Shown here piece after piece: positions 17,295 to 33,695 of a DNA stretch of 33,695 nucleotides (its first letter is position 1; each line of letters starts with the position of its first letter). The notes beneath the pieces were generated by a model. It saw nothing but the letters and a program-made list of their open reading frames with translations. It ran no database searches and was not told the origin of the DNA. The position numbers were made by a program, and so were the translations under genes. This stretch comes from Candidatus Methanofastidiosia archaeon (GTDB lineage: Archaea; Methanobacteriota_B; Thermococci; Methanofastidiosales; SZ-28-30): assembly GCA_046760205.1 (NCBI GenBank), contig JBHIDS010000003.1, positions 1-33,695 of the forward strand, given 5' to 3'.

Positions 17295-17404
17295 TTGCGT
17301 CAGATTTACGTCAGAAGTTCAACATTTTGCGTCAGATATTATTTTCTCAAAGAATAATGCTTCCTGTCAGATTTACATCTGGTTTTTAAAATTTTGCGTC
17401 AGAT
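17295..17404 (+). repeat. Five copies of a TTGCGTCAGAT-like motif
   Basis: TTGCGTCAGAT at 17295, 17327 and 17394; TTACGTCAGAA at 17306; CTGTCAGAT at 17364. Confidence 0.75.
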
Positions 17405-17430
17405 AGTAGATTTATGTAAGCAAAACGGTC

Positions 17431-17519
17431 GCCTAACACAGCATAAAAGGTTCGTGCTTTACGACATTTACCCAAATTTTTGCTTCGCAAAAACTTCTTT
17501 TATGTTGCTTTCGTTAGCC
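17431..17519 (+). other. attC-like recombination site (89 bp)
   Basis: R'' GCCTAAC (RYYYAAC, 17431-37); arm CATAAAAG (17442-49) pairs with CTTTTATG (17497-504); inner hairpin TTTTTGC-TTC-GCAAAAA (17477-93); R'-like GTTAGCC (17513-19). Confidence 0.65.
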
Positions 17520-17696
17520 AATATACTGCCAGAGAAAGTACTTCACATATATTGTTTTGCAAACCAGAGATTTTTGTGCAAAGTGATACTGAATAATGCA
17601 TTATTGATTGTGAAAAGGGTGATTAGGATTTAGTTCCAAACCCAGCTCTCCAAAAAGCTTATATTGATGTTTCTAAACATCTTAGGAGTGGCTTGA

Positions 17697-18488: not shown

Positions 18489-18490
18489 GA

Positions 18491-21251: not shown

Positions 21252-21264
21252 CAAAATATTGGAT

Positions 21265-22095
21265 ATGGAGAAGATCCTCATGAATAAGAGATGGTTAGAA
21301 GCTCAAAACTGTGAAAAAGAATATTGGAATAGCAATGTTTTGGATGTTGAGAACGAGGAACTGCAACTTAGGTTTTTCAATTTGATGAAAGAATTAATGA
21401 AAGAATTAAAAATAGGAGAAGGAGACCGAATACTTGACTTAGGTTGTGGACCTACCTGTATCTCAAAATTCTTTGAAGGTACTGTTAGAATAGGAATAGA
21501 TCCCTTAATCATTTACTTCAAGAAAAACCTAGAGTTGCCAAAGGATATTCTCTTCACAGAGGGAAGAGGAGAACACTTGCCATTCAAAAATTCCAGTTTC
21601 GATTTAATCATTTGCAGAAATGTAATTGATCACACCGAAGATCCAGAAAAAGTTTTAAAAGAAGTTTTAAGAACCCTCAAAGAAGGAGGATTTTTCATCA
21701 TCATCTCAAACATTTACTCTAAATTTGTTTCAAAGATAAAGAAATTTCACGAAAAAATGAATTTCTTAAGAGAAAATTACCATCCACATTTTTTTAGTGT
21801 ATTTGAGCTTAAAGAACTTTGTGGAAAGTTTTTTGAAGCTATTAATGAAGAAACAGTTTTTCAGAAGAATAATTTCAAATTTAAATCAAAGAAAATGGAT
21901 AAAGGAAATTTTAGAAGAATAATTCTTTTTTTGAAATATTTGAGTAGTTTAGATTTTGATCCAATATTGAATTATTTGAGAAGAAAAATCACTTTTTCAT
22001 ACTGGAATTTTATTGGTTTTCTCAACCATAAATTAATGAAAAACGATTTCTATCAGAGTGAATATCTTTTTTTACTAAAGAAATCTGAGAGATGA
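21265..22095 (+). CDS. Class I SAM-dependent methyltransferase
   Basis: ILDLGCGP, GIDP and LPFKNSSFDLIICRNVIDH. Start moved to the ATG downstream of the previous stop (track start 21184). Confidence 0.83.
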   Translation: MEKILMNKRWLEAQNCEKEYWNSNVLDVENEELQLRFFNLMKELMKELKIGEGDRILDLGCGPTCISKFFEGTVRIGIDPLIIYFKKNLELPKDILFTEGRGEHLPFKNSSFDLIICRNVIDHTEDPEKVLKEVLRTLKEGGFFIIISNIYSKFVSKIKKFHEKMNFLRENYHPHFFSVFELKELCGKFFEAINEETVFQKNNFKFKSKKMDKGNFRRIILFLKYLSSLDFDPILNYLRRKITFSYWNFIGFLNHKLMKNDFYQSEYLFLLKKSER

Positions 22096-23270
22096 AAAAA
22101 ATGAAGATAGCGATGGTTGGGGGGATGGGAGATGTGCCACCAAGAAGCAGTGGAGCCATAGAGAGACACATTCATAACATCTCAAGAAAGTTAACTAAGT
22201 TTGGGCACGAAGTTCATGTTTATGTAAATTTGAATAAAGAACTAAGAAAAACTGTTGAAGGATACAACATCCACAGCCTAAAGGTAAGAAAAATTCCTGG
22301 ATTACCCTATCTTAGTAGAGTTTACTTCTTTGGAGGAATGATGAAAGAGATTGCGAAGAAACAAGATTTTGATGTTGTTCATTCGCAAGTTTCTCTTCCT
22401 GCCTACTCAACGATAAGTTCTCTCAAGAACTTAAAAATACCTTTGATATACACTGAACACTTTTGGAGTATGTGGATGATGGACGATAAGTCAGGATTTC
22501 CATTTTCATACAGAGTATTCACACCCATAGGAAAGATGGCTTCAAAAAAACTTTACACCCTTGCAGATCATCTGATTTTTTTGAGTGAAAATTTTGAGAG
22601 AGAAATTCGAAAGCGTTTGGAGTTCGATCATAAAAAGATTTCCATAATCCCAAATGGTGTTGATACAGAAATTTACAATCCGAAAAATCGAAACATGGAA
22701 ATATTTGAGAGATGGAACTTGAACAAAGAGATTCCAAAGATACTCTATGTTGGTAGACTATCTCCTGAGAAGGGAATTATTTATTTGTTGCAAGCCTTCA
22801 AAGAGATTTTGAGGATTTATGAGGTGAATTTGCTGATAATAGGTGAAGGACACCAAGAGAAATACTTGATGGAATATTCAAAAAAGATAGGTGTAGAAGA
22901 TAAAGTGATTTTTGCTGGAAATTTAGAAGTTGGTATGTTAAAAAGGCTCTATGCCTCTTGCGATATTTTCTGTCTTCCAAGTTTACATGAAATGTTTCCT
23001 CTTGTAATCTTAGAAGCCATGGCAAGCCAAATCCCAATCATTGCCACAAGAACAGGGGGAATTTCAGAGACGATTGAAAGTGGCAAAGAAGGTTTACTTG
23101 TTCCATCGATGGATTCAAAGGCTCTTGCAAAGAAAATAATTACTCTTATCGAAGACAAAAATTTAGCAAAAAATCTCACAAAGAATGCTTATAAAAAGGT
23201 AATCTTGAAGTACTCATGGAATAAAGTTGCAAGAGAAATTGAAAAAGTCTACCAAAATTTGATCCATTAA
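22092..23270 (+). CDS. Glycosyltransferase family 4
   Basis: IIPNGVD, YVGRLSPEKG and PSLHEMFPLVILEAMA; ATGA overlap with the upstream gene. Confidence 0.9.
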   Translation: MKKMKIAMVGGMGDVPPRSSGAIERHIHNISRKLTKFGHEVHVYVNLNKELRKTVEGYNIHSLKVRKIPGLPYLSRVYFFGGMMKEIAKKQDFDVVHSQVSLPAYSTISSLKNLKIPLIYTEHFWSMWMMDDKSGFPFSYRVFTPIGKMASKKLYTLADHLIFLSENFEREIRKRLEFDHKKISIIPNGVDTEIYNPKNRNMEIFERWNLNKEIPKILYVGRLSPEKGIIYLLQAFKEILRIYEVNLLIIGEGHQEKYLMEYSKKIGVEDKVIFAGNLEVGMLKRLYASCDIFCLPSLHEMFPLVILEAMASQIPIIATRTGGISETIESGKEGLLVPSMDSKALAKKIITLIEDKNLAKNLTKNAYKKVILKYSWNKVAREIEKVYQNLIH

Positions 23271-23311
23271 AATGTTTGAAAAGATTTATATATCTATGGA
23301 AAATCATCAAT

Positions 23312-23650
23312 ATGGTAAAAAGTGGTTTTCTACTTATTGTTGGGATGATCGTCATCTCACTTACACTTTTAATCTTCAACCTTCAAGGATTTAGAGTTCT
23401 TCTTGGAATAATCTTTGTTCTTTTCTTGCCAGGTTACGTTTTGATGCAGACTCTTTTTCCAAAAGGGGATCTGGATTGGACTGAAAAGGTAATTTTGACC
23501 ATAGTTTTGAGTGTTTCTGTGGTTATAATTGATGGATTGATCCTTGACAGATTCTGGGATTTGAGCTTTATTCCAATCATTGCCTCTTTGAGCCTCTTCA
23601 TCCTGGTTTTTGCTCTGATTTCTGCAATCTTGAGAATCAGATTTTCTTAA
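23312..23650 (+). CDS. DUF1616-like small membrane protein
   Basis: FVLFLPGY..LFP...E...L...LS motif. TTTATATA at 23285-92 supports ATG 23312. Confidence 0.7.
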   Translation: MVKSGFLLIVGMIVISLTLLIFNLQGFRVLLGIIFVLFLPGYVLMQTLFPKGDLDWTEKVILTIVLSVSVVIIDGLILDRFWDLSFIPIIASLSLFILVFALISAILRIRFS

Positions 23651-23658
23651 CTCTACAA

Positions 23659-24915
23659 TCATTTCAAAATCCTTTTCACAAAACCAAAAAAGATTGCAAG
23701 AGATACAATGGTTTGGGTTGTAAGATAGGCAATTCCCACCCCTTTAAGTCCCATCCTCCCCAAGAGCAAATAGCTTAAGACTAGTGTTGAAAATGAGATG
23801 AGGGCATTGAGCTTTATCACATTGCCCACTTTCTTTTCTAGGTTGTAGAGAACAATCCTTAGAGTGTTTATCGAGAGAGGAATTGAAGAAAGAACGAGCA
23901 GGATCAAAATACCATGACCACTCTCAACATACCTGTTACCAAAAAGCCCAAGAAGGAAATCCACAAAAACCAAGGTTAAAGCTATTGCAGGAGTTAAAGT
24001 GATTACGATGAATTTGAGAGAATTTCTCAAATTCTCAGAGATCATCTTCTCGTTGTGAGAGCCCTCAGCTAGAAGGGAAGAGGCTGTGGCTTGAGGTAGG
24101 ATGAAGAGAATGGATGCAATCATAAAAGAAACATAGAAGTAAGCTGTTGACTCTGGATTTAGGAGATTGATTATCATCAAAGGTAGAACCATTACTGGGA
24201 GCCTCGATAGAAGTCCTGCAAGATAGTTTCCAAATGCAAAACTCAACATGGGCTTTAAGGATTTAAAGTCAAAGTCAAGCCTTAAACGATACTCCGGCAT
24301 AAGTCTTTTAAAATAAAAGTGAAAGCTCAAGAGAAAGGCGAGGAGAGATGCAAGTCCCCAAGAGACGAAGATTCCCATGGCTCCAAGAAAAATCAAAAAG
24401 AAGGGAAAGGCTATTTTTAAAATACTGAAGAGGGTGTTCTTTAAAAGGATGTACCTTGCCTTTCTCAAAGAGAGAAACAAACTCTCAAGAAGAACTGTGA
24501 AGAGCCAAAAAAGGGTGAAGAGAATAAAGAGGGAGGAGTAGAGGAGGCTTTCTCTTAGAAAACCAAGCTCTGGAGAGATTGAGTCTAAAAAAAGCAAAAA
24601 TATCGTTGAGAGAACCAAAAGAGTAAAACCAGATATTGTAAAGCTTGAGTTGATTATTTTTTCCTTGTCCTTAAAAGTAGGCAAAACCCTCACCATCAAA
24701 ACTCCAAAACCGAGGTTTGAGAAGGAGGATAGTAGAGTCATTCCCGAAATTAGGGCCACTGCAAGCCCTAAAGATTTTGGAGAGTAGAACCTCGCACAGA
24801 GAGTCCAGAAGATGAATCCCAAAAAAGAGGATACGAGGGAGTTTGCTATGAGGTAGGTGGTGGTCTTTATAAGAGTGCTGTCAATCAAAGCCCTGATTCT
24901 TTTTCTTACATTCAC
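23659..24915 (-). CDS. Oligosaccharide flippase (MOP/Wzx family)
   Basis: About 12 TM segments, LGFIFW..AR.Y, NLGFG, AYFY and LGLFG..Y; GTGA overlap with the AglB-like gene. Confidence 0.85.
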   Translation of the reverse strand: MNVRKRIRALIDSTLIKTTTYLIANSLVSSFLGFIFWTLCARFYSPKSLGLAVALISGMTLLSSFSNLGFGVLMVRVLPTFKDKEKIINSSFTISGFTLLVLSTIFLLFLDSISPELGFLRESLLYSSLFILFTLFWLFTVLLESLFLSLRKARYILLKNTLFSILKIAFPFFLIFLGAMGIFVSWGLASLLAFLLSFHFYFKRLMPEYRLRLDFDFKSLKPMLSFAFGNYLAGLLSRLPVMVLPLMIINLLNPESTAYFYVSFMIASILFILPQATASSLLAEGSHNEKMISENLRNSLKFIVITLTPAIALTLVFVDFLLGLFGNRYVESGHGILILLVLSSIPLSINTLRIVLYNLEKKVGNVIKLNALISFSTLVLSYLLLGRMGLKGVGIAYLTTQTIVSLAIFFGFVKRILK

Positions 24916-27900
24916 ATTTGATTGAATCCTTGTAGGTTATAAAAAACTTTGCCAGAAAGAATAAGGATTTTAAAGGGAGAGGACTTGTAGTACCAGATCG
25001 AACCTTCAGGCTCTGCATCCAAGATGTGAGTGAGCAAGAGATACTCTCCAGGTTTTAGATCTTTTTTCAACTTGAGTTCAATATAGATGTACTCACTTTT
25101 TGTATTTGAATCTTGAGAGTATGAACTTGAAACCTCAAGCTCCTGCACTATCTTTAAAGAGGGAAGTCCTTTTAGATTAAATATTATCCTATCCTCAATC
25201 AATGGCTTAAAATTGGTTTTTACCTTGAATCTAATCTTTAAGCTCTCCCCAGCTTTAATCTCTGGAATCTCATCAAAAGTTCTCCATTTTTCATTTGAGA
25301 GATACCTAACATCGACTATCTCTGAGGAGAAATCTGTTTCAAACTTCAAACTCAAACTCCCAAAGTCCTTGCCATCTGAGACAAAAACATGATATAGGTT
25401 TAAACCCTCAAATATTCTCAAAGAGGGAGAAGAATCTTTTCCTATTTTCAGCTCAAAATTACCCCTCGCATCTGTTTTGGTTTTCCAAACTCTCTCTCCA
25501 CTTCTTACAACAACTTCTGCTCTCTCAACAGGTGTATTCCTGAATGCCTCTCCCTCTATCCTAAGCTCATCAAACGTGGCATTTAGTTCAGCTCTCACAG
25601 AAATCGTTTCCTTTGGAATGTGAGAAATCTCAAAGAGTTCGAATGCGAAGTAGGTGTTTTTTGGAGTCATCCAGCCATCAGATGTGGAATTTCTATCCTC
25701 GGGAACCTCTAATATGTAGGAGATATTCCCAGAATAGCTTTCCTTAGAAGTTAAACCAGAAAATCCGTCCCATCCCCAACCATAAAAGCTTGAGGGGTCT
25801 TGCTCATCGTAGATGACTCTCTCTCTTTCATCTGAGAGGTATATGCTATCGAAGAGAACATAGTCTCCAGAACCTCCAAAGAAGGCAATCTCGAAATTTT
25901 CTATCCTGCCATAGGGTGATTTTCCAAGCTCCTGTGAAACTTCATCTGAGAGTCTCACAGTAACAAAGTTCCAGTTCTTGTTTTTAAGATGAGGGATTTT
26001 CACTCCAGGATAGCTCAAAGCTCCATCTGAAATCTGATGCCAGTTGCCATTTACAAAAAAATAGATACTGATAAATGAGTTTGGATTGGATTTTTTATAG
26101 GCAAAGTTTAGATGAGTCATTCCCTCAGAGGATGCAAGCTTTTCTTCTAACCTAGCTGTGAGCTGGTACGTTCCAATCCTTAAGTCTCCAGTGAGTTTAA
26201 AGGAAACCGTAAAACTCTCAGTAGATGCAGGATCTAGCTCAACGTCAAAGAACTCTCTGTAGCCCAAATCCCCATGAGGGTCGATGAGATAGACCTCCAA
26301 GGTTCCAAATAAAGGGTCTGCATCAGAGTTAACCTGGACCTCAAATCCCTCTTGGTATCTCTTCACAGATATGAACTTGTGATGCTCAATTTTGTAGATT
26401 TGGACATCCCCCTTTGAAAAAACCAACTCAAACCCCTCGGGTTCTGAAGAGGCTTTTGCAAGAAGAGAATCGTAAAAACTCATTGAACTTTGAGCATACC
26501 ATTTTATCTTTAACCACTTAAGTAGGGTTCTCTCATCGATGAGCAAATAGTCCACACCCCTCTTTTTAGCAATCTTTAAAGATTCCGTAGGATTTTCAGT
26601 AAAGATGGAGTAGAGTTCTGAGTCGCTTGCGTTTGGATGCCCCCCCAGAAAAGCTGTTTTTCTTTCAGCCTTCGCCTGAATCAACCAAGTGTAGTCCCAC
26701 CATGAGAGGATCACAGAATCTTTGGGAGTTTTGCTTTTTATGAATTCAAAGCTCTCTTGAAGCTCTTCTGTAATTAAAGGAGAAATCTCATTTAGATGGT
26801 TGTAGGAGAGGAAGAAGTTTGGAAGAACCAGTAAAATCACCAAAGACAACCTCAAAGAGGATTTGTCAAGAAAAAGAGCTCCAAGAAAACATAAGATGGG
26901 GGATGCCAGAAACAAGAATCTCACCATGATGTACATCAAGGCAGAGCTTGCAACTATGTATCCAAGAACAAAACCATTTCTCTTTCTTATGAGAGGGATG
27001 AGTCCCAGAGGAGAAAGAATAAAGAGCACTCCAAGATAAGAGGCTAAGTTTTTAAAGGTGAGTTGGTACTGCTCTGTAACGGTTCTGTCAACTCTAAAGG
27101 GGTCAAGGTTTACGTTGAGCTCGTAAAGTTCTAAAAGTTGGTTTTGAATAAATCCACTCTTTAACTCTAGGAGAATAGCTGAAATGAGGAGAATTGAAAA
27201 AATCACGATCTTCAAGCTTCGATTTTGGAACTTTAATTTCTTTATGAAGGCAAGAAGAAAGGATAAAAAAATTACAGAGCCTAATAAAATTGCTAAAAGC
27301 TCAATCTCCCTCAGCTGGTTTTCTACAAGACTCTCTTTGAGTTGAAGGTGGTATATGAAGAAGAGGTGGTTGAAGAGAAAGATCAAACTCAATCCCAAAA
27401 TGCTGGTGATAGAAAAGGAGAGAATACAATTTTTGAAGTTGGGATTCTTTAAGGTGAGAAGATTCAAAAAGTATCCTAAAAAGCATGCTGTAAGCGTAAC
27501 GAAGGCAAAGGGCCAGCCCACCCATGTTATTCCACATAAAAAGAGAAAGAGAGAAGATAGGAAAGAATATCTTTTATTTTCAAGACTTAGGTGAAAAAAA
27601 TAGAGCATCCAGAGCATGAAAAAGAGCATGAAAACATCTCCCCTAAGGTTTCCAGCAAGACTCTTTTCTATGGAGGCTTGGGTTATGGCATAAAAGAGAA
27701 CTGTTAATAAGGCAACCTTTGCTGTGTACATTCTCTTTATCAAAAGGTAAAGTGGGATTGCACTCAAAGTTCCAAAGATTGCAGGAAGAAGCTTTGCGGT
27801 CCTAAAGAGAGAGAATCCAAAAAGATTCAAAAATTTGTGAAAGATCCATGCAATAAAGTACATTCCCTCATAACCAACAACATAGTAAAAAGAACCCTCT

Positions 27901-28091
27901 GCTCCATCGTAGAAGTTTAGAATTGGATAGTGAGAGCTTTCAACCAACCTTTGAATTCTGTCAAAGTGCATGAAGGGATCTGCAAAGAGAAGATATGAAA
28001 ACCTTGCACTGGATGCTCTGAGAGAGAAGGCAAGTGAAAGCAACGCTATGAGAATAACCTCTCTTCTTCTTTTTTTGAGTTTAAGGTTCAT
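24912..28091 (-). CDS. STT3/AglB-like oligosaccharyltransferase with a long C-terminal extension
   Basis: N-terminal TM region with DPFMH, RGD and TVTEQ (TIxE-like); SWWDYTW acceptor motif; about 480 aa of additional beta-rich extracellular sequence. Confidence 0.78.
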   Translation of the reverse strand: MNLKLKKRRREVILIALLSLAFSLRASSARFSYLLFADPFMHFDRIQRLVESSHYPILNFYDGAEGSFYYVVGYEGMYFIAWIFHKFLNLFGFSLFRTAKLLPAIFGTLSAIPLYLLIKRMYTAKVALLTVLFYAITQASIEKSLAGNLRGDVFMLFFMLWMLYFFHLSLENKRYSFLSSLFLFLCGITWVGWPFAFVTLTACFLGYFLNLLTLKNPNFKNCILSFSITSILGLSLIFLFNHLFFIYHLQLKESLVENQLREIELLAILLGSVIFLSFLLAFIKKLKFQNRSLKIVIFSILLISAILLELKSGFIQNQLLELYELNVNLDPFRVDRTVTEQYQLTFKNLASYLGVLFILSPLGLIPLIRKRNGFVLGYIVASSALMYIMVRFLFLASPILCFLGALFLDKSSLRLSLVILLVLPNFFLSYNHLNEISPLITEELQESFEFIKSKTPKDSVILSWWDYTWLIQAKAERKTAFLGGHPNASDSELYSIFTENPTESLKIAKKRGVDYLLIDERTLLKWLKIKWYAQSSMSFYDSLLAKASSEPEGFELVFSKGDVQIYKIEHHKFISVKRYQEGFEVQVNSDADPLFGTLEVYLIDPHGDLGYREFFDVELDPASTESFTVSFKLTGDLRIGTYQLTARLEEKLASSEGMTHLNFAYKKSNPNSFISIYFFVNGNWHQISDGALSYPGVKIPHLKNKNWNFVTVRLSDEVSQELGKSPYGRIENFEIAFFGGSGDYVLFDSIYLSDERERVIYDEQDPSSFYGWGWDGFSGLTSKESYSGNISYILEVPEDRNSTSDGWMTPKNTYFAFELFEISHIPKETISVRAELNATFDELRIEGEAFRNTPVERAEVVVRSGERVWKTKTDARGNFELKIGKDSSPSLRIFEGLNLYHVFVSDGKDFGSLSLKFETDFSSEIVDVRYLSNEKWRTFDEIPEIKAGESLKIRFKVKTNFKPLIEDRIIFNLKGLPSLKIVQELEVSSSYSQDSNTKSEYIYIELKLKKDLKPGEYLLLTHILDAEPEGSIWYYKSSPFKILILSGKVFYNLQGFNQM

Positions 28092-28141
28092 TCAACAATC
28101 CTTCATGAAAAACCTTAAAAGTTTTGTCCTTACTTTAAGCT

Positions 28142-28879
28142 ATGGGTTTCTATCACTTAGATACCAAGAACAGAGAGATGGAAGTACTCTTGGTAGAAAA
28201 CATAGACATGCAGGAGCACATCCAAAACTATATTAGAAGAACTGCAAAGCTCTTCAACTTCACCACAAAAGATGTGATTGAGAGAGATCCAAGAACCATC
28301 ATCACTCAGATAGAGAACCAAAACTTTCAGTTCTTGAGGTTGAGATTCAACGATCCCTCTCCTGGGGTTGCAAAGTCTCTGGTTCTAGAGGGAATCCTTG
28401 AGCTCTCTCCCTTAAAAGATCCAAGAGAGATCTTCAAGGACTTCAAGAGGTACGAGTGTGAGATGAACCTCATAAATTTGAGCACAGAATTTCTGCCTTC
28501 AATGGTCTTGAGAAGGTTGAGAGAGGTTATGAGAGATTTTGAGATTTTAAATGAGCTCTCTTCAAAACTAAACTCTGACAAAACCTTTGACCATTTTGTG
28601 AGATACTTTGGGCTTGAGATCTTTGAGTTTCAGGTGAAGTTTGGAATGCCTATGCACGATGAGGGGTATAGGAGGTCTGTGCTCTCTTCGGATTTCTCAG
28701 ACCTTCCAGTTTCAAACCAGATTCTCTGGGACATTTACTTGGAGATAACCATCTCTGAGAAGCTCGTTCAGTGGACCTGGTACTATTTAAGAGAGGAGGA
28801 GTGCAAAGAGATAGTAAATATCTTCAACAGGATTTGTTCTTATCTTGAGCAACTTGGACTTTTAGGTGAAGAATTTTAG
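28142..28879 (+). CDS. Hypothetical protein
   Basis: 245-aa ORF with host-like codon usage and no recognised motif. The start may be ATG 28178. Confidence 0.65.
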   Translation: MGFYHLDTKNREMEVLLVENIDMQEHIQNYIRRTAKLFNFTTKDVIERDPRTIITQIENQNFQFLRLRFNDPSPGVAKSLVLEGILELSPLKDPREIFKDFKRYECEMNLINLSTEFLPSMVLRRLREVMRDFEILNELSSKLNSDKTFDHFVRYFGLEIFEFQVKFGMPMHDEGYRRSVLSSDFSDLPVSNQILWDIYLEITISEKLVQWTWYYLREEECKEIVNIFNRICSYLEQLGLLGEEF

Positions 28880-28895
28880 AAAAGGAGGTTGACTC

Positions 28896-29312
28896 ATGTT
28901 GAAGTTGGTGGGTATAGGGCTTCTATTGGTTGGGATTCTGGTTTATATTTCAGCAACAGATTACATCTCAGAGGAATTTGTCCTAGAGGGAGAGGAGGTT
29001 GTATTAGATTACGAATTTTCCAGGTTGGATCCCATGGCTCACAGACTCTCAGGCGAGATAGAGTCTGAAAGAGAGATCACCATTTCACTTTCTGGAAGTA
29101 AAGCCTTTGAAAAAAGAGGAAAAAGAATAAAAATTGATGAGAGTTTTTCAAAGGGAGAGAGAATAGTGCTAAAGCTCTCAAATTCAACTCCCACGAAGGT
29201 GAGATATGATCTAAAGCTGGTTTGCTACTCCTACATCTACTCAGGTTCTCTCTTTACTTTCTTAGGAGCCATTCTCTTGTTGTTGGGATTTTTCTTTGAG
29301 AGAAAGGCTTAA
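28896..29312 (+). CDS. Hypothetical membrane-anchored protein
   Basis: SD AGGAGG; N- and C-terminal hydrophobic helices flank a small beta-rich domain. Confidence 0.7.
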   Translation: MLKLVGIGLLLVGILVYISATDYISEEFVLEGEEVVLDYEFSRLDPMAHRLSGEIESEREITISLSGSKAFEKRGKRIKIDESFSKGERIVLKLSNSTPTKVRYDLKLVCYSYIYSGSLFTFLGAILLLLGFFFERKA

Positions 29313-29329
29313 AAATCATCACTATAAAA

Positions 29330-29376
29330 GCCCCGAGCATCGCCGAAGGTTTGCTTGGTGGTCAGCCTCTCTTTTT
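29330..29376. other. GC-rich hairpin: candidate small RNA or terminator
   Basis: Stem CCGAGCA/TGCTTGG encloses GCCGAAGGT (CUUCGG on the minus strand) and is followed by TCTCTTTTT, within an AT-rich gap. Confidence 0.3.
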
Positions 29377-29540
29377 GCTCTTAACAGAAAGATTTATATC
29401 ATCGGAAATCGAGATCTTGTTTTTCATGCAAAAAAGAAGAAATCCAAGGGTTTAAATTTTCTATTATGGCTTAGCCATAATAGAAAAATAAGTTCAATAT
29501 ATATTGAATTTTACTTTTGTAAAGTACAAATTTTTTTGAA

Positions 29541-29589
29541 CCAAAAAGCTTAAATAATAAGTTGATTATATAAAAAAACTTAGAGGTGA
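29541..29589 (+). promoter_or_regulatory. BRE-TATA promoter and SD of the peptide cluster
   Basis: CCAAAAAGCTTAAATA at 29541-56; GAGGTGA at 29583-89. Confidence 0.6.
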
Positions 29590-29590
29590 G

Positions 29591-29902
29591 GTGATGAGAA
29601 GGAACAAGGCAATTGCATTGTTGGTTTGTGTGAACTTGTTTTTGGTTGGAAGTGCAATGGTTGTAGAACAAGCTGGTTGGATAATTGCTAATAGTGCTGG
29701 TTGTACAAGCACGCAATATGCTAGAGCTTACAACACTGGAAGCACAGGTGGTGGAGGAGGTTGCGGAGGAGGATGGGGGGAACTTGGAGATTATGAGACA
29801 TGGGCTCTTATATGGTCTGGAGCATATTGGGGGGCAAAAGCTGGAACAGAAATAGGTGGAGCTGTGGGAGGTTTTATTGGAGGACTAGTGGGGGGATTGT
29901 AG
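29591..29902 (+). CDS. Gly-rich secreted peptide, putative (circular) bacteriocin/archaeocin precursor
   Basis: Basic-hydrophobic leader, poly-Gly linker, and a C-terminal glycine zipper GAKAGTEIGGAVGGFIGGLVGGL. Directly upstream of SpoIIM and Yip1 genes. Start is GTG 29591 or ATG 29594. Confidence 0.65.
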   Translation: MMRRNKAIALLVCVNLFLVGSAMVVEQAGWIIANSAGCTSTQYARAYNTGSTGGGGGCGGGWGELGDYETWALIWSGAYWGAKAGTEIGGAVGGFIGGLVGGL

Positions 29903-29936
29903 TTCATTTGAATTTCTATAAATTTTTTTAATTGAG

Positions 29937-30287
29937 GTGGTAAAATTGAAAAAAGAAGTGCCTGGAGTGGCTGGATATCTAGCAGGACTAGTGGTGATAC
30001 TTATAATTTATTATTTATTTAGGCCAATTAGCGAGATATTTAATATATCATTTGCTGTTGTTTTAGGATTTAGTGTTGGAATAAGTGTTGATGAAATTTT
30101 GTCAAAGGGTAGAATAAGGAAAGAAACAATAGTTGGAGGTATAGCTGGAGCTATAGTTGCTGGAATAACATTTTTTTATCTACTCGAGGTAGGAGTAGCA
30201 GAAATTTTCAGTTGGGCTTTGAGTTTTACTTTGGGTTTTGGTATTTTTACATTGAGTGAATATGTTGTTTCAAAAAGGAAAAGTTAA
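29937..30287 (+). CDS. Small 4-TM protein, putative immunity protein
   Basis: 116 aa, four hydrophobic segments in two similar halves, basic termini. The role is inferred from position only. Confidence 0.55.
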   Translation: MVKLKKEVPGVAGYLAGLVVILIIYYLFRPISEIFNISFAVVLGFSVGISVDEILSKGRIRKETIVGGIAGAIVAGITFFYLLEVGVAEIFSWALSFTLGFGIFTLSEYVVSKRKS

Positions 30288-30308
30288 ACAGAATTTTATG
30301 GTGATAGA

Positions 30309-30872
30309 ATGATTGTAAATTTTCTTTTTAGAAACAGAATACCTTTGCTTTTAGCATTTTTTATTTATGTTTTAAGTTTTTCAATAGGAATGTTTTTATC
30401 ATATAACTCAGAAATTCACCAACCAATTCCAGAATCGTTCTATGATATGAATCCATACAGAATAAAAGGTAATCCAGATAGTCCTTTGTTTTTTCTGAAA
30501 TACAATTTGCTGGTAATAACAATATTAATAGTTGGAGGATTTTCCTTGGGAATACTTACCTTATTAAACCTCGCCTTCAATGGCTTAATATTTGGGGTTG
30601 TTATAGGAGATTTTCTTAATAAAATTTCCATCTCAAAAATCTTGATTTTAACCCTTCCTCACGGAATCTTTGAGCTTCCAGCAACCTTGCTTGCTGGAAC
30701 TGTAGGCTTTCTGATTGCAAAATCCTTTTATAACTACCTAAGGTTTGGAGAGGAACCTTTGAAAAAACAAGAGCAAAAAGATATTTTTGCTTTATCTACC
30801 TTCTCAATCGTTTTGATCGTTGTTGCAGCAATAGTTGAGGCAAAGATAACAACCCAATTTATAGGTGGTTGA
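30309..30872 (+). CDS. SpoIIM / DUF95 family membrane protein
   Basis: LAFNG, LPHGIFELPA and VAAIVEA motifs. Confidence 0.85.
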   Translation: MIVNFLFRNRIPLLLAFFIYVLSFSIGMFLSYNSEIHQPIPESFYDMNPYRIKGNPDSPLFFLKYNLLVITILIVGGFSLGILTLLNLAFNGLIFGVVIGDFLNKISISKILILTLPHGIFELPATLLAGTVGFLIAKSFYNYLRFGEEPLKKQEQKDIFALSTFSIVLIVVAAIVEAKITTQFIGG

Positions 30873-31520
30873 ATGAACAGAATTATTGGGATTTTGGTAA
30901 AACCAGTAGGAACAATAAGAGAAATCAATGAGGAAAAAGTAGATTTGAATAAACCATTTTTAATTGTTTTTCTCATAGCTTTTTTTAATTTTATCACTGC
31001 ATTCTTCATGTTGAATGAGATGGCAAAAGTACTTCCAAAAGAACATAGACCCTTTTTTTGGGCAGGGGCAACTGGTGGAGTGCTTGGTGCCACTCTTGCA
31101 GTATTTTTAAATTGGATAATTATTGCTGGAATATTTCATTTATTAGCTTTGGCATTGGGAGGGAAAGGTAGCTTTAGAAAAATCTTGGAAATATTTGGCT
31201 GGGCTCACATTCCAAAAATTTTTTCAGCTATTTTTGTGTTGATTATCATTGTTACAATGTTTCCAAAAGAAGTGCCTTCAAGCATAGATGTAGAAAGTAT
31301 TCGATTGTTGTTTCAAAATTCTTTGTCAATCAAAGCAACGAAAATTATTCAAAGAATCTTCTTATACTGGACTCTATCTCTCTTAGGGATTGGAATCTAT
31401 TTTAATCACAAAATTTCAAAAATTAGAACAACTTTGGTAATTGTTTTGCCAGTCTTGATTTACACATTTTTTGATGTTTTTTTGAAAGATCTCATATTGA
31501 GATATCTTGGGTTTCCCTAA
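30873..31520 (+). CDS. Yip1-domain membrane protein
   Basis: N-terminal ILVKP...I.E, WII.AGIFH...LGGKGSF and GWAHIP; 5 TM segments. Confidence 0.8.
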   Translation: MNRIIGILVKPVGTIREINEEKVDLNKPFLIVFLIAFFNFITAFFMLNEMAKVLPKEHRPFFWAGATGGVLGATLAVFLNWIIIAGIFHLLALALGGKGSFRKILEIFGWAHIPKIFSAIFVLIIIVTMFPKEVPSSIDVESIRLLFQNSLSIKATKIIQRIFLYWTLSLLGIGIYFNHKISKIRTTLVIVLPVLIYTFFDVFLKDLILRYLGFP

Positions 31521-31599
31521 TCCTCAACTTTCTCCTTTATCTTTTCCAAAAATTTGTCATAGAAATCAACTTAAAAATAATCTTAGAAGAAAAAGAATA

Positions 31600-31616
31600 A
31601 GAGAAAGGCTTAAATA
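31600..31616 (+). promoter_or_regulatory. BRE-TATA promoter of the tRNA pair
   Basis: AGAGAAAGGCTTAAATA; the TATA starts about 31 nt before tRNA-Thr. Confidence 0.65.
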
Positions 31617-31640
31617 ATCATTCAAAAGAAAACATTTGAG

Positions 31641-31797
31641 GCCTCGGTGGCTTAGCGGTAGAGCGACCGCCTCGTAAGAACCCCTTTTCTTTCTTAAAAG
31701 AAAGAAAAGCTGTTCATGGGAAAAGAAAGAATTTTTCTCTTTCAAAAAAAGGTTCAGAGAGAGCGGTAGGTCGGGGGTTCGAATCCCCCCCGAGGCT
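31641..31797 (+). tRNA. tRNA-Thr(CGT) with an 85-nt intron at position 37/38 (31677-31761)
   Basis: Acceptor stem GCCTCGG/CCGAGGC, anticodon stem ACCGC/GCGGT, loop CT-CGT-A|A, T arm GGGGG-TTCGAAT-CCCCC. BHB motif with bulges TAA and AGA and outer helix GAACC/GGTTC. Confidence 0.92.
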
Positions 31798-31799
31798 TT

Positions 31800-31873
31800 G
31801 GGGTCGTAGGGTAGCTTGGTGATCCTTGTGCCTTCGGGAGGCATAGACTCGAGTTCGAATCTCGGCGACCCCA
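31800..31873 (+). tRNA. tRNA-Pro(CGG)
   Basis: Acceptor stem GGGGTCG/CGACCCC, anticodon arm GTGCC-TTCGGGA-GGCAT, T loop TTCGAAT; CCA is not encoded. Confidence 0.95.
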
Positions 31874-31919
31874 TAAAATATTTAGATAAACCTTATAAAC
31901 CTTCAAAGGAATCCAAAAT

Positions 31920-33173
31920 ATGAAGTACCAGAGCTTCACCTCCCCAAGGTGCAAGATCTTTGTGGAGATGGATAAAACTCTGAAAATATCGAGAGAAAAA
32001 TGCATAACCTGCAAGGGGAGATTGCTCTGTGGACTTCCAGCTTGCCCGATACTAGAGCAGGTGAAGGTTCAGAGATTGAAGAAAGAAAAACTAAGGAAAA
32101 ACTTTCAGGGTCCTGCACCCTCTCTCTTTGTGAGTTGGCACGACTATCCCAACGTCAACGTAGGATTTCTCTCTCTTCCATTTCACACAGAAGATTCAAT
32201 GATTTATGATGATCCAGCAAGATGGTATGGACTTGGATTTCCTGAGATCATAGAGTACAGATCAAGCCTTGTACGTTCAATGGAAAAGTGTAACGTTAAG
32301 GATAAAGGAAAACTCACCCAAAACCTTGAGGAGATTTCTGCCTCTGAAATTCCAGTTGAGGTTGAGATTGGGTTGAAGTCAAAGCCCAAATTCCAAGTGG
32401 TTTTCTCAGCCATAGCACAACCTATGGGACCTTTTGGCAAGCTCAAAAGCTTCAAGATAACGGAAAATCCTAAGATTCCAAAAAAAGTGGATAGAATTCT
32501 TGGAGATGAGCTCAAGGCTGCAGACTCTTTAAACCTTTTGTACAGAAAAGGACTCGATGTTTACTATCTTGAAAGAATCTTCAGTGCGGGAATTTTGGGA
32601 AATGAGAGAAAGCTGGTGCCGACCAGATGGAGCATTACAGCTGTAGACAACATTCTATCTAATCGTATGATAGATGAAATCAAAAACTTTAAGATTTTGG
32701 AGAATTTCAAGATATTTTCAAATTCCTATCTTGGAAACCACTTCGAGATTCTGCTCATGCCTGAAAGATGGCGATACGAGCAGCTTGAGGCTTGGGTTCC
32801 AAATACATTCTGGACTTTAGGACTCAGTGAGATAAAGCTCATAGGGGAGCACGAAACCTACTTTGGAAGGAGTGACTATGCCATTCGAGAGGGTGGGGGT
32901 TACTATGCAGTAAGGTTTGCAGTTTGTGAGCTTTTAAAAAGCATGAGAAGACAAGCTACAGTTCTTGTTTTTAGAGAGACCTCGAAAGATTACTATCTTT
33001 CTGTTGGAGTATGGGAGTGTCGAGAAAATATAAGGAATGCCAGAGAGATTTCAGAGTTTGAGAGTTTAAAAGATGCCTTGAACGACATTGGGGGGAGGTT
33101 GAGGATACCAATCAAAGATTGGAAAAAGAAAAGCATTATTCTAAACCAAGAAAAACTGGATCACTGGATTTAA
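31920..33173 (+). CDS. nreA: Nre family archaeal DNA repair protein
   Basis: CxxCKGRLLCGxxxCP zinc finger, PSLFV, RKLVPTRWSITAVD, GGYYA and C-terminal PIP box QEKLDHWI. The start may be ATG 31968. Confidence 0.9.
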   Translation: MKYQSFTSPRCKIFVEMDKTLKISREKCITCKGRLLCGLPACPILEQVKVQRLKKEKLRKNFQGPAPSLFVSWHDYPNVNVGFLSLPFHTEDSMIYDDPARWYGLGFPEIIEYRSSLVRSMEKCNVKDKGKLTQNLEEISASEIPVEVEIGLKSKPKFQVVFSAIAQPMGPFGKLKSFKITENPKIPKKVDRILGDELKAADSLNLLYRKGLDVYYLERIFSAGILGNERKLVPTRWSITAVDNILSNRMIDEIKNFKILENFKIFSNSYLGNHFEILLMPERWRYEQLEAWVPNTFWTLGLSEIKLIGEHETYFGRSDYAIREGGGYYAVRFAVCELLKSMRRQATVLVFRETSKDYYLSVGVWECRENIRNAREISEFESLKDALNDIGGRLRIPIKDWKKKSIILNQEKLDHWI

Positions 33174-33226
33174 CCTGTAGGCAAAGCTTTAAATGTTTCA
33201 TTTCATATTAAAACAGAGGTAGTCGG

Positions 33227-33508
33227 ATGCCTGAAGATGATAGTGAGAAGGAGATAGAGAAAGCCTTAGATGAGTACATAGAACTCCAAGTAGAAAGGCT
33301 AGTAACAGAGAAATTGAAAAGATTGGTATCAGTGGAAGTTTCAAAACTCAAAAAAGAGTTAAAAGATTTTGTGAGAGAAGAAGTTTCAAGTTTAAGAGAA
33401 AAACCAAAGATTCTTGAGGAAAGTCCGAAAGAGGATGAGAAGATAAAGAAAGCCTTTGAGAGCCTTCGCGAGGCAAAGCTTAAACAGAGCAAAATTTTAG
33501 GTGAGTGA
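33227..33508 (+). CDS. Hypothetical charged coiled-coil protein (93 aa)
   Basis: TATA-like CTTTAAAT at about 33187 and SD GAGGT; sequence is E/K-rich and helical. Confidence 0.7.
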   Translation: MPEDDSEKEIEKALDEYIELQVERLVTEKLKRLVSVEVSKLKKELKDFVREEVSSLREKPKILEESPKEDEKIKKAFESLREAKLKQSKILGE

Positions 33509-33686
33509 GATGCCTACTTGCTTATTTTGTGGAAAGGAGAAGAAGACCCACTGGAAGACGGATCTTTTGATAGATTACAAAGTGGATACCCTTAGAGTAA
33601 CGGTTTGCAGAGATTGCAGAAAACACAAGATTTCATCCCTCTATGTTAAGGCTTTAGAGAAGGCTGCAGAGGAAGAGAGATGGTGA
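33501..33686 (+). CDS. Small zinc-binding protein (CxxC...CxxC)
   Basis: CLFCG and CRDC; coupled to the upstream gene. The start may be ATG 33510. Confidence 0.65.
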   Translation: MSEMPTCLFCGKEKKTHWKTDLLIDYKVDTLRVTVCRDCRKHKISSLYVKALEKAAEEERW

Positions 33687-33695
33687 GGGCAACCG

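What the first reader, a model, noticed from the sequence alone, without database searches (positions are those of the whole stretch)
29541..31520. Minimal circular-bacteriocin-like (archaeocin) cluster next to tRNA genes
Seen: own promoter and strong SD, then precursor, 4-TM protein, SpoIIM/DUF95 and Yip1, tightly packed and ending just before the tRNA promoter. Established: DUF95/SpoIIM proteins, often with Yip1 proteins and small immunity proteins, mark head-to-tail cyclised bacteriocin clusters. Similar loci have been predicted computationally in archaea. Inference: this cluster makes a membrane-active antimicrobial peptide. There is no ABC ATPase or peptidase in the cluster, so export may use the Sec-like leader.
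Basis: partly seen in the sequence, partly recalled or inferred. Interest (0 to 1): 0.75.

Follow-up and report, generated by a model that had tools for sequence, protein, structure and literature searches.

The report
Archaeal bacteriocin-like peptide–SpoIIM–Yip1 cassette
A four-gene, 2.3-kb cassette that some strains of this archaeon carry and others lack pairs an orphan secreted-type peptide with membrane proteins related to those bacteria use to make ring-shaped antimicrobial peptides, so it is a good but unproven candidate for an archaeal antimicrobial peptide system.

Summary
Four tightly packed + strand genes lie at 29594-31520: a 102-aa peptide with a signal-like N-terminus and a glycine-zipper tail, a 113/116-aa four-helix membrane protein, SpoIIM (PF01944) and Yip1 (PF04893). 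They follow a promoter-like element and end before two tRNA genes.

The SpoIIM groups with SpoIIMs of Bacillus and Priestia circular-bacteriocin clusters that also carry Yip1, and with archaeal cassettes of the same layout. It does not group with the housekeeping copies. Makarova et al. (2014, 2015) described this cassette type (arCOG01996, Yip1, small variable membrane proteins) but read it as defence or membrane remodelling.

In Methanococci and Archaeoglobi the first-slot peptides form a family with a conserved leader and a variable part of 54-77 aa. 23 of 32 have a SpoIIM gene just downstream.

There is no ABC ATPase on the contig, and nothing bears on cyclisation.

New here: a public contig joins 29298 to 31600 across a 15-nt direct repeat, so the cassette is a strain-level insertion or deletion. 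In another population the peptide's C-terminal third does not align.

Verdict: a bacteriocin-like peptide and immunity module, about 50% likely. A similar module was noted before in this scan on Asgard DNA.

The parts
29299..29313 (+). Left copy of the exact 15-nt direct repeat AGAGAAAGGCTTAAA. It overlaps the stop codon of the upstream 138-aa gene and is the left edge of the 2,301-nt indel.
29299..31599 (.). The 2,301-nt segment present in the window but skipped in one contig of run X3 (empty site). It holds the whole cassette and its upstream intergenic region.
   Evidence: joint 29298->31600; 15 letters fit both sides; record of 390 nt, depth 5.4, flanks with 0 and 2 other letters
29487..29556 (+). 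Repeated promoter/operator-like element. It contains the 16-nt palindrome TTCAATATATATTGAA (29493-29508) and the BRE/TATA-like AAAGCTTAAATA (29545-29556). Copies lie on contigs C2 and C90, with partial copies on C89 and C43.
   Evidence: depth spike
29583..29593 (+). Shine-Dalgarno-like GAGGTGAGGTG directly before ATG 29594.
   Evidence: read directly
29594..29902 (+). Gene 1: orphan 102-aa peptide. It has a basic N-terminus (RRNK), a hydrophobic stretch of about 18 residues with a small-residue site (GSA) after it, a Gly-rich middle with 2 Cys, and a GGxxGG-type glycine-zipper C-terminus that runs to the last residue.
29937..30287 (+). Gene 2: 116-aa protein (113 aa from TTG 29946) with four hydrophobic helices and net charge about +3 (by eye). 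It sits in the slot that small immunity proteins hold in bacteriocin clusters. It has no homologues.
30309..30872 (+). Gene 3: SpoIIM/DUF95-family membrane protein with the PHGIFE.P motif. It is an accessory paralog; a second SpoIIM lies on contig C226.
30873..31520 (+). Gene 4: Yip1-domain membrane protein. Its start codon abuts the SpoIIM stop codon.
31600..31614 (+). Right copy of the 15-nt direct repeat. It is part of the promoter-like element before the tRNA genes.
31641..31874 (+). Two tRNA genes that bound the cassette on the right: one with an intron (anticodon loop read by eye as CGU, Thr) and tRNA-Pro(CGG).

Best explanation
The four genes are one dispensable, self-contained module that makes a small membrane-active peptide for competition between microbes and protects its producer. 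Proposed course, all of it inferred: the operon is transcribed from its own promoter, which carries a palindromic operator shared with a few other loci. Gene 1 is made as a 102-aa precursor. Its N-terminal signal-like leader takes it to or through the membrane, most simply by Sec with cleavage near GSA/M, about residue 21, or near residue 26. The released peptide of 76-81 aa acts on target membranes through its aromatic and glycine-zipper C-terminal helices. SpoIIM and Yip1 are membrane proteins of the same lineages as those in Yip1-type circular-bacteriocin clusters of Bacillota. Here they would handle the peptide (release or export, possibly head-to-tail ligation) and contribute to self-protection. 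The small cationic four-helix protein of gene 2 would be the cognate immunity protein. I put cyclisation itself at no more than one in three. Shown: gene content, order and families; clade membership of SpoIIM; the same slot architecture in other archaea; leader-and-variable-core structure of the slot-1 family elsewhere; presence/absence of the cassette between strains; a localised stretch in the peptide's C-terminal third that does not align in a relative. Inferred: secretion, cleavage, activity, immunity and cyclisation.
For: (1) Families and packing.
(2) The SpoIIM is an extra paralog (second copy on C226). No close relative of it was found with this protein in the 3 same-family and 30 same-order genomes searched; the best E-values there were 3e-10 to 5e-4, whereas one Thermococcaceae genus reaches 1e-27.
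(3) It is 32% identical over its full length (E 2e-21) to the SpoIIM of a B. thuringiensis circular-bacteriocin cluster. In a 114-row tree it sits in an 18-row clade (SH-aLRT 95). That clade also holds 8 Thermococcaceae cassette copies, the Methanococci, Archaeoglobaceae and M. hollandica cassettes, the B. thuringiensis and Priestia cluster copies, and Paenibacillus and Chloroflexaceae copies that lie in circular-bacteriocin-type clusters. The housekeeping copies and the genome's own second paralog are among the other 96 rows.
(4) Cassette-type Yip1 was found beside SpoIIM only in that clade: window, L056, L072, L124, L125/L136/L137, L122, L054, L097. The window's Yip1 gives E 3.4e-6 to NCBIfam YknW_fam. 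YknW is an accessory subunit of a peptide-toxin efflux pump.
(5) The same slot order, peptide then small TM protein then SpoIIM (then Yip1), occurs in L056, L072 and L100. It also occurs in tandem modules in Methanococci: 20 of 23 modules have a small ORF between peptide and SpoIIM, most with 2-4 hydrophobic segments.
(6) The slot-1 family has a conserved leader and a variable remainder: identity 0.79 against 0.28 in 9 Methanococci-type members, with post-leader lengths of 54-77 aa.
(7) Bacterial precedents have long signal-like leaders in Yip1-type clusters. In the B. thuringiensis 99-aa precursor the family model matches residues 39-99 only. The Chloroflexaceae precursor is 114 aa. Altitudin S has a 56-aa leader and a 76-aa core.
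(8) Strain-level indel bounded by the 15-nt repeat. In run X4, positions 29780-29922 (the last ~41 codons of the peptide gene plus the spacer) are replaced by 134 unalignable letters, while the other 3.8 kb laid from that contig shows 121 other letters and 30 gaps.
Against: The peptide has no detectable relative: self only in 5.8 bn clusters; self plus two low-complexity giants in 1.84 bn representatives; nothing credible in 60 relatives.

A profile of the slot-1 family built without the window's peptide scores it at E 0.37 (5.4 bits), below a spurious ORF. Its E 4.9e-18 is circular, and the pairwise E 0.009 to L056 may be compositional.

It matches no bacteriocin or circular-bacteriocin model, while controls do.

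AlphaFold2 gives three helices and a disordered Gly stretch at pLDDT 60-62, not a confident compact bundle.

The ABC ATPase and the ~550-aa membrane protein present in all seven bacterial clusters whose gene content I read in full are absent from the whole 33.7-kb contig; the two Clostridium tables list the ATPase but leave about 2.2 kb unannotated.

The C. perfringens bacteriocin SpoIIMs fall outside the clade, so being bacteriocin-linked is not one lineage.

The tree was a quick search with long branches. Its rows were gathered with a profile built from cassette-type sequences.

A hydrophobic N-terminus plus a hydrophobic C-terminus also fits a two-pass membrane protein that is never released. 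Makarova et al. counted this kind of protein as a 3-TM membrane protein.

The unalignable stretch in X4 rests on one contig and lies in slippage-prone GGN codons.

There are no expression data.
Confidence: 0.5

Rival explanations
1. A membrane protein complex with no toxin role. All four products stay in the producer's membrane and act in membrane remodelling, vesicle formation or a related envelope function, as Makarova et al. (2015) proposed for arCOG01996 cassettes by analogy with eukaryotic Yip1 and with SpoIIM in engulfment.
For: All four proteins are predicted to be membrane-embedded. The published reading of this cassette type is this one. The gene-1 product has hydrophobic segments at both ends and no confident soluble fold. 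The cassette adjoins an N-glycosylation and envelope island.
Against: A housekeeping envelope function fits poorly with several results. The cassette is present in some strains and absent in others. It was not found in the same-family and same-order genomes searched. Methanococci carry tandem arrays of diversified modules, and only 14 of 40 genomes have them. The leader is conserved and the core is variable. The SpoIIM and Yip1 lineages are shared with bacterial bacteriocin clusters.
Confidence: 0.17
2. A membrane-associated defence or immunity cassette. Either the small peptide is an internal effector, for example a membrane-depolarising suicide peptide triggered by virus infection, or the module only protects against peptides made by neighbours. 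Makarova et al. [quoted passage not shown]
For: This is the published suggestion, and such loci lie near restriction-modification genes in Pyrococci and near SalXY-type ABC transporters in Methanococcales. The cassette is variable and dispensable like defence islands. YknW-type Yip1 proteins act in protection against a peptide toxin. In the leucocyclicin Q system, loss of the DUF95 gene left mature circular peptide inside the cells, which shows a role in secretion. That the same study also found a role in immunity I recall only; I did not see it in a call.
Against: None of the four proteins matches PADLOC or PHROGs at E<=0.01. No virus-sensing or nucleic-acid-directed component is present. An N-terminal signal-like leader with a small-residue site suits export better than an internal effector. 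Immunity-only modules would not need a variable peptide gene at the head of each module.
Confidence: 0.15
3. The adjacency means little. Gene 1 is an unrelated small envelope protein, for example a glycine-zipper anchored or lipid-modified surface protein (a Cys follows SAG at residues 34-37), or is not translated. Only SpoIIM and Yip1 form a functional pair.
For: The peptide is an orphan. There are weak, non-significant similarities to glycine-zipper families (E 5.8). The composition is low-complexity.
Against: The gene has a strong ribosome-binding site and its own promoter, and all four genes are tightly packed. The indel removes all four genes together. The same slot is filled by a peptide of like size and shape in the related cassettes. 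The gene is kept, with in-frame differences, in a ~97%-identical relative.
Confidence: 0.06

Closest known systems
Yip1-containing head-to-tail cyclised (circular) bacteriocin clusters of Bacillota (e.g. the B. thuringiensis pYGD30 and Priestia megaterium p2 clusters seen here; pumilarin and altitudin clusters in the literature)
   Same: The SpoIIM is of the same clade: 32% identity over full length, E 2e-21. A Yip1 gene is present. The precursor is about 100 aa with a long hydrophobic leader and a hydrophobic remainder of about 60-76 aa. A small hydrophobic protein lies next to the precursor. The clusters are plasmid-borne or strain-variable.
   Different: There is no ABC ATPase and no ~550-aa polytopic membrane protein. 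The peptide matches no circular-bacteriocin model. It is Gly-rich (a run of about 15 mostly Gly residues), net acidic by eye, and has 2 Cys. The host is an archaeon. Cyclisation is untested.
Archaeal arCOG01996 (SpoIIM/COG1300 paralog), arCOG02054 (Yip1) and arCOG09673 (small variable membrane protein) cassettes of Archaeoglobi, Methanococci and Thermococci (Makarova et al. 2014, PMC4158269; 2015, PMC5898192)
   Same: It is a three- or four-gene cassette with a SpoIIM paralog, Yip1 and small fast-evolving membrane proteins. The window's SpoIIM groups with such cassettes. The profile search from slot-1 peptides recovered Metvu_0325, the arCOG09673 example named in the paper.
   Different: The window's two small proteins are not detectably homologous to those of the described cassettes. 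The lineage is an order other than Thermococcales within the same class. Unlike some described loci, it has no SalXY-type ABC, AAA+ ATPase or S-layer gene nearby. The papers do not propose a bacteriocin role. I could not see their supplementary tables, so I cannot say whether this exact arrangement is listed.
YknWXYZ of Bacillus (four-component efflux pump that protects against the SDP peptide toxin)
   Same: It includes a Yip1-family accessory membrane protein. The window's Yip1 hits NCBIfam YknW_fam at E 3.4e-6 over its full length. Another Yip1 of this genome (C91) lies next to a 274-aa protein with four predicted hydrophobic segments that I did not scan against any family library.
   Different: The score (26.7 bits) is far below the family cut-off (110). 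The cassette has no YknX, YknY or YknZ counterparts.
Linear glycine-zipper (GxxxG-rich) class II bacteriocins and microcins (comparison recalled, not from a call)
   Same: Small, secreted, with a Gly-rich hydrophobic C-terminal helix suited to membrane insertion.
   Different: No match to any such family was returned at E<=10. Those peptides normally use double-glycine leaders with C39-peptidase ABC exporters. No ABC ATPase is on the contig. I did not test C39 itself beyond the ORFs scanned.

Membership tests
Circular (head-to-tail cyclised) bacteriocin gene cluster | SpoIIM/DUF95 membrane protein in the cluster (class-defining) | tested here: met
   PF01944 E 7.1e-25. It shares a clade with the B. 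thuringiensis and Priestia cluster SpoIIMs. Pairwise E 2e-21.
Circular (head-to-tail cyclised) bacteriocin gene cluster | Precursor that belongs to a known circular-bacteriocin family | tested here: not met
   No hit to PF09221, TIGR03651 or any other bacteriocin model at E<=10. The positive controls P0011 and P0012 match both models.
Circular (head-to-tail cyclised) bacteriocin gene cluster | Leader of 2-56 aa and core of about 58-76 aa folding into a compact helical bundle | tested here: inconclusive
   The sizes fit: leader about 21-26 aa, remainder 76-81 aa (ranges). The AlphaFold2 models are low-confidence (pLDDT 60-62) with a disordered Gly stretch. I did not attempt a fold search on such a model.
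Circular (head-to-tail cyclised) bacteriocin gene cluster | Small, cationic, hydrophobic immunity protein next to the precursor | tested here: inconclusive
   Gene 2 is small (113/116 aa), has four hydrophobic helices and a net charge of about +3 by eye, and is in the right position. It has no homologues, and its function is untested.
Circular (head-to-tail cyclised) bacteriocin gene cluster | ABC transporter (ATPase plus membrane protein) in the cluster | tested here: not met
   34 PF00005 matches in the genome, none on contig C3, which is the whole window. No large polytopic protein lies in the cassette.
Circular (head-to-tail cyclised) bacteriocin gene cluster | Peptide bond between the first and last residue of the mature peptide | not testable with these tools
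   This needs mass spectrometry of the product.
Archaeal arCOG01996 cassette (Makarova 2014/2015) | SpoIIM paralog distinct from the widespread stand-alone copy | tested here: met
   A second SpoIIM lies on C226. The tree separates the window's copy, together with the cassette copies, from the copies found in nearly all relatives. The arCOG number itself could not be assigned because no arCOG library is at hand.
Archaeal arCOG01996 cassette (Makarova 2014/2015) | Adjacent Yip1 (pfam04893) gene | tested here: met
   PF04893 E 8.3e-21. phmmer gives E 3.5e-15 and 6.6e-14 to the Yip1 genes of the Archaeoglobaceae and Methanococci cassettes.
Archaeal arCOG01996 cassette (Makarova 2014/2015) | Small membrane proteins of the arCOG09673 superfamily | tested here: not met
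   A profile of the family (which includes Metvu_0325) built without the window's peptide gives E 0.37. The likeness is one of slot, size and shape only.
YknWXYZ-type peptide efflux system | YknW-family Yip1 protein together with a MacB-type ABC and a membrane-fusion protein | tested here: not met
   YknW_fam scores 26.7 bits against a cut-off of 110. No ABC ATPase is on the contig.

The most novel reading that the evidence does not exclude
This is a natural minimal system for head-to-tail peptide cyclisation. In archaea a SpoIIM protein, helped by Yip1 and without any ABC transporter, would take a Sec-delivered precursor, remove its leader and ligate its ends. The widespread arCOG01996 'dark matter' cassettes would then be a large, unrecognised reservoir of circular archaeocins with cognate immunity genes, exchanged between strains as 2-kb modules.
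Probability: 0.15. Interest if true: 0.85.

Novelty: new variant of a known kind. Interest (0 to 1): 0.6.

Why it matters
Very few archaeal antimicrobial peptides are known, and in my searches no paper links SpoIIM or DUF95 to bacteriocins in archaea (the 2019 mBio survey of archaeal antimicrobial peptides was not held).

If the reading is right, a cassette type known since 2014 only as uncharacterised membrane 'dark matter' becomes a family of peptide-toxin and immunity modules. These modules share machinery with Gram-positive circular bacteriocins.

Which protein cleaves and cyclises circular bacteriocins is still unknown. A four-gene version without an ABC transporter, with a natural empty-site strain as a control, would be a compact system in which to ask what SpoIIM and Yip1 actually do.

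If the reading is wrong, the module is still a clear example of a strain-variable membrane cassette inserted at a tRNA promoter.

Tried and rejected
- Complex prediction of SpoIIM with the peptide: no verdict. It is not used either way.
- RNA evidence: no RNA holder listed.
- Fold search: not run, because both AlphaFold2 models were low-confidence.
- ESM Atlas: no usable feature hit for the peptide. The structure neighbours were generic helical hairpins, and the 116-aa protein had only unnamed clusters at 0.90 or less.
- PADLOC and PHROGs: 0 families for 6 proteins.
- Sigma-70 promoter and terminator scan: about chance level, and not suited to an archaeon.
- Rfam at permissive threshold on 29200-29620: only chance-level hits.
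- Literature: Makarova et al. 2019 (mBio 10:e00715-19 / PMC6509191) is not held, so I cannot say whether it already reads these cassettes as archaeocins. The supplementary tables of PMC5898192 and PMC4158269, which list the loci, were not seen.
- A post-hoc filter for 'signal-like N-terminus plus Gly/Ala-rich uncharged tail' flagged peptides near 7 of 89 SpoIIM rows. All 7 were in cassette-type loci, against 2 of the 79 rows from L043-L121 (L056 and L072). I wrote the filter after seeing three such peptides, and it missed the Thermococcaceae loci L037, L040 and L041, so it counts for little.
- Lipoprotein reading (Cys after SAG): considered, not tested. The Cys lies about 12 residues beyond the hydrophobic stretch.
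- Double-glycine leader with a C39 exporter: no ABC ATPase on the contig. C39 was not sought in the ORFs of 1-12,500, which I did not scan.
- Integrase or transposase inside the indel: none is possible, because the four ORFs account for the coding space.
The charges given are counted by eye.
Full report
**What is there.**
- The window is the whole of contig C3 of a 2.25-Mb, 285-contig archaeal genome bin.
- Four + strand ORFs lie at 29594-31520: 102 aa (103 from the GTG one codon upstream), 116 aa (113 from TTG 29946, the start that another gene caller chose), 187 aa and 215 aa. The gaps between them are 34, 21 and 0 nt.
- Pfam places the third in SpoIIM (PF01944, E 7.1e-25) and the fourth in Yip1 (PF04893, E 8.3e-21). 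The first two have no family.
- Each gene is preceded by a GGTG-type ribosome-binding motif.
- An AAAGCTTAAATA element sits 38 nt before the first start codon. It aligns with two other copies in the window, one of them 25 nt before the first tRNA gene. On its own the motif count is not significant.
- The 70 nt that carry this element, including a perfect 16-nt palindrome, recur at 96-98% identity on other contigs. One copy lies directly before a 105-aa gene. I therefore take it as a real, shared promoter/operator.
- Two tRNA genes follow the cassette. Upstream lies an N-glycosylation island with STT3/AglB, a flippase, glycosyltransferases and methyltransferases.

**The peptide.**
- Gene 1 encodes a basic N-terminus, an ~18-residue hydrophobic stretch ending in Gly-Ser-Ala, a middle with two Cys and a run of about 15 mostly Gly residues, and an aromatic, GGxxGG-patterned hydrophobic tail that runs to the last residue.
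- It is an orphan. It found only itself in the 5.8-billion-cluster collection. In the 1.84-billion-representative HMMER search it found itself plus two giant low-complexity proteins. It found nothing credible in 60 related genomes and has one copy in its own genome.
- It matches no bacteriocin model. Two annotated circular-bacteriocin precursors, used as controls, matched PF09221 and TIGR03651.
- AlphaFold2, alone or with a 22-row alignment, gives helices at about 2-44, 64-82 and 88-101 and a disordered Gly stretch, at pLDDT 60-62. That is too poor for a fold search.

**SpoIIM and Yip1 point to bacteriocin-type machinery.**
- The genome has a second SpoIIM gene and seven Yip1-domain matches, so the window's copies are extra paralogs.
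- A SpoIIM homologue occurs in 57 of 61 genomes of the class. The window's copy is only distantly like those (E 1e-5 to 1e-12). Its best matches (E 1e-27, 37% identity) are clustered paralogs in one Thermococcaceae genus.
- tblastn against 72,556 plasmids gave 8 records. The 6 bacterial ones (Bacillus x3, Priestia, Clostridium perfringens x2) all lie in circular-bacteriocin clusters, and 4 of them also hold a Yip1 gene.
- One archaeal record, a Methanomethylovorans hollandica plasmid, has a divergent Yip1, two nearly identical 66-aa peptides, an 80-aa protein and SpoIIM. The other, haloarchaeal, has a long SpoIIM fusion with no such context.
- I built a tree of 114 SpoIIM domains from all loci in hand (quick IQ-TREE search). 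The window's protein lies in an 18-row clade with SH-aLRT 95.
  - Inside the clade are the Thermococcaceae, Methanococci, Archaeoglobaceae and M. hollandica cassettes and the B. thuringiensis and Priestia cluster proteins. Four further bacterial proteins are there too; two of them (Paenibacillus, Chloroflexaceae) sit in clusters with a recognisable circular-bacteriocin precursor, Yip1, a 550-585-aa membrane protein and an ABC ATPase.
  - On the other side are the housekeeping copies, the genome's own second paralog and the C. perfringens proteins.
- A Yip1 profile found a Yip1 gene beside SpoIIM only in loci of that clade.
- Pairwise, the window's SpoIIM is 32% identical over its full length to the B. 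thuringiensis one (E 2e-21). The Yip1 proteins share a 56-residue block (E 7e-6).
- The literature agrees that SpoIIM is the hallmark of these clusters and that Yip1 is common in them (passages read). It also agrees that the cleaving and cyclising enzyme is unknown.

**The cassette type is known in archaea, under another reading.**
- Makarova et al. described arCOG01996 (a COG1300/SpoIIM paralog) in three- or four-gene cassettes. These contain arCOG02054 (Yip1) and small, fast-evolving membrane proteins such as arCOG09673, and occur in Archaeoglobi, Methanococci and Thermococci.
- They read the cassettes as 'novel membrane-associated defense systems' (2014; passages) or as membrane-remodelling or vesicle systems (2015; section 3.3 read in full).
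- I found no paper that links them to circular bacteriocins. The 2019 mBio survey by the same group was not held, and supplements were closed.
- This scan had noted a SpoIIM/Yip1/ABC module in an Asgard archaeon and a peptide/SpoIIM/Yip1 cassette in a Gemmatimonadota genome before.

**Slot-by-slot comparison.**
- A Methanococci bin (L056) has a 113-aa peptide, a 136-aa four-helix protein, SpoIIM and Yip1, followed by a secreted protein, another small membrane protein and an ABC ATPase.
- An Archaeoglobaceae bin (L072) has a divergent Yip1, a 103-aa peptide, an 86-aa two-helix protein and SpoIIM.
- The two peptides are homologous (E 5e-7).
- A profile of them retrieved 21 proteins of 90-129 aa, among them Metvu_0325, the very arCOG09673 example of the 2015 paper.
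- Aligned, they show a conserved N-terminal part ending in V-G-D and a variable remainder of 54-77 residues. In nine Methanococci-type members the identity is 0.79 before that point and 0.28 after it. I chose the boundary after seeing the alignment.
- The family occurs in 14 of 40 Methanococci genomes, with 1-4 copies each.
- In the fetched regions, 23 of 32 members have a SpoIIM gene within 1.5 kb downstream on the same strand, and 22 of 32 have a Yip1 within 7 kb. Of the nine without a SpoIIM, three lie within 1.5 kb of a locus end.
- The modules stand in tandem, up to four or five in a row, with one Yip1 at the end. In 20 of 23 modules a small ORF of 77-201 aa, mostly with 2-4 hydrophobic segments and highly diverse, lies between peptide and SpoIIM.
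- Six Thermococcaceae loci likewise hold 10 small ORFs that share an MW(R/K/G)(K/E)ALV start and then differ.
- A conserved leader, a variable remainder, a variable small membrane protein beside it, and repetition in arrays are what toxin-immunity and bacteriocin loci look like. Housekeeping complexes do not look like this.

**The main weakness.**
- The window's own peptide cannot be shown to belong to that family. A profile built from 50 family members without it scores it at E 0.37, second to a spurious ORF among 217 window ORFs.
- Its E-value came from a profile that contained it. The co-linear pairwise alignment to L056 (30% identity, E 0.009) may owe much to composition.
- Gene 2 also has no detectable relative, including among the 20 middle-slot ORFs.
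- The likeness of the first two genes is therefore one of position, size and shape only.
- The cassette also lacks the ABC ATPase and the large membrane protein found in the seven bacterial clusters I read in full, and listed among the basic features by a review. For the two Clostridium clusters only the ATPase could be read.

**Population evidence.**
- An exact 15-nt direct repeat (AGAGAAAGGCTTAAA) lies at 29299-29313, where it overlaps the stop codon of the upstream gene, and again at 31600-31614, in the tRNA promoter.
- Eight public runs from two studies hold the stretch or part of it. I laid the contigs of four runs on 26000-33695.
- One 390-nt contig of run X3 (depth 5.4) runs from 29168 to 29298 and continues at 31600 to 31858, with 0 and 2 differences. 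It skips exactly the 2,301 nt between the repeats. Low-depth pieces from inside the cassette are also present in that run.
- The cassette is thus present in some genomes and absent in others that are otherwise near-identical. Either it was inserted with a 15-nt duplication, or it was lost by recombination between the repeats.
- As I recall, these contigs are built from 31-letter words, so a 15-nt repeat should not cause a false join. A read-level check is still needed.
- In run X4, from the other study, a 7.7-kb contig carries the cassette. Positions 29780-29922, which are the last ~41 codons of the peptide gene plus the spacer, are replaced by 134 letters that do not align at 85% likeness. 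The other 3.8 kb laid from that contig, from gene 2 onward, shows 121 other letters and 30 gaps.
- Small indels that sum to in-frame lengths lie in gene 1 (3 nt) and in a loop of gene 2 (12 nt). This rests on one contig, in slippage-prone sequence.

**Reading.**
- I think the cassette most likely (about 0.5) encodes a released, membrane-active peptide together with its handling and immunity proteins. It would use SpoIIM and Yip1 of the lineage that serves circular bacteriocins in Bacillota. Entry to the membrane would be by the signal-like leader, which explains why no ABC exporter is needed.
- Cyclisation is possible but unsupported (at most one in three, given the above).
- The rivals are a non-toxic membrane complex (0.17), a membrane-associated defence or immunity-only module (0.15), and an unrelated first gene (0.06).
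- None of the four proteins matches PADLOC or PHROGs.
- It is a new variant of two known kinds, not a new kind. It is an ABC-less, four-gene form in a new archaeal lineage, with orphan variable parts, and it is a strain-level indel beside tRNA genes.

Noticed in passing
window 31641-31797: tRNA gene with an intron of about 85 nt at the canonical position. The anticodon loop, read by eye, is CU-CGU-AA (Thr). Rfam found it (54.4 bits) but ARAGORN missed it. It is followed after 2 nt by tRNA-Pro(CGG).
   Followed up: partly
window 29326-29400: Just downstream of the left promoter-like copy (29299-29316) lies a stable hairpin followed by a U-run (MFE -22.2 kcal/mol, z -2.5; 3 of 200 shuffles fold as well). 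This may be a small RNA. It has no Rfam match, and it lies inside the 2.3-kb indel.
   Followed up: partly
window 29487-29556; also G000 C2:35059-35126, C90:9254-9308, C89:39-73, C43:10766-10794: A ~70-nt promoter/operator-like repeat with the palindrome TTCAATATATATTGAA, at 96-98% identity on other contigs, often at contig ends. On C2 it directly precedes a 105-aa gene that by eye looks like a small helix-turn-helix regulator (not tested). This suggests a small regulon that includes the cassette. It explains the depth spike at 29341-29597.
   Followed up: partly
window 29457-29487: A second, 23-nt near-perfect palindrome (CTATTATGGCT/TAGCCATAATAG) that recurs on contigs C39 and C66. Its function is unknown.
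   Followed up: no
window 12527-28091: Large glycosylation island: a 1,059-aa STT3/AglB-like oligosaccharyltransferase, a flippase-like protein, three GT4 glycosyltransferases, two methyltransferases and a 583-aa protein with no family. G+C dips to 29-30% at 20-22 kb.
   Followed up: no
window 15777-17291: A 504-aa protein that joins a cytidine/dCMP deaminase domain, a HATPase_c_4 domain and a C-terminal winged-helix/DeoR HTH. This is an unusual fusion.
   Followed up: no
L139 (G066:C1:1175000-1190000) and L140, L141, L148: Methanococci genomes carry tandem arrays of up to four or five [variable peptide, small TM protein, SpoIIM] modules, closed by a single Yip1 gene. Each module has its own SpoIIM copy, which argues that SpoIIM is matched to its peptide.
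   Followed up: partly
L100 (1.9-kb contig labelled Cyclobacteriaceae): An archaeal-type module (129-aa peptide whose leader resembles the Archaeoglobi leader, a 147-aa four-helix protein, SpoIIM) on a short contig binned as Bacteroidota. This is either a binning error or a transfer between domains.
   Followed up: no
L124 (Methanomethylovorans hollandica plasmid pMETHO01, 89089-97568): Two nearly identical 66-aa, very hydrophobic peptides, an 80-aa protein and a SpoIIM of the same clade, with a divergent Yip1 and a regulator. The peptides match no bacteriocin model. This is a cultured, plasmid-borne candidate that could be tested directly.
   Followed up: partly
L129 (G000 C91:6197-9203): Another cassette-type Yip1 of this genome lies next to a 274-aa protein with four predicted hydrophobic segments, which I did not scan against any family library. 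I did not test whether this pairing resembles YknW beside its ABC permease.
   Followed up: no
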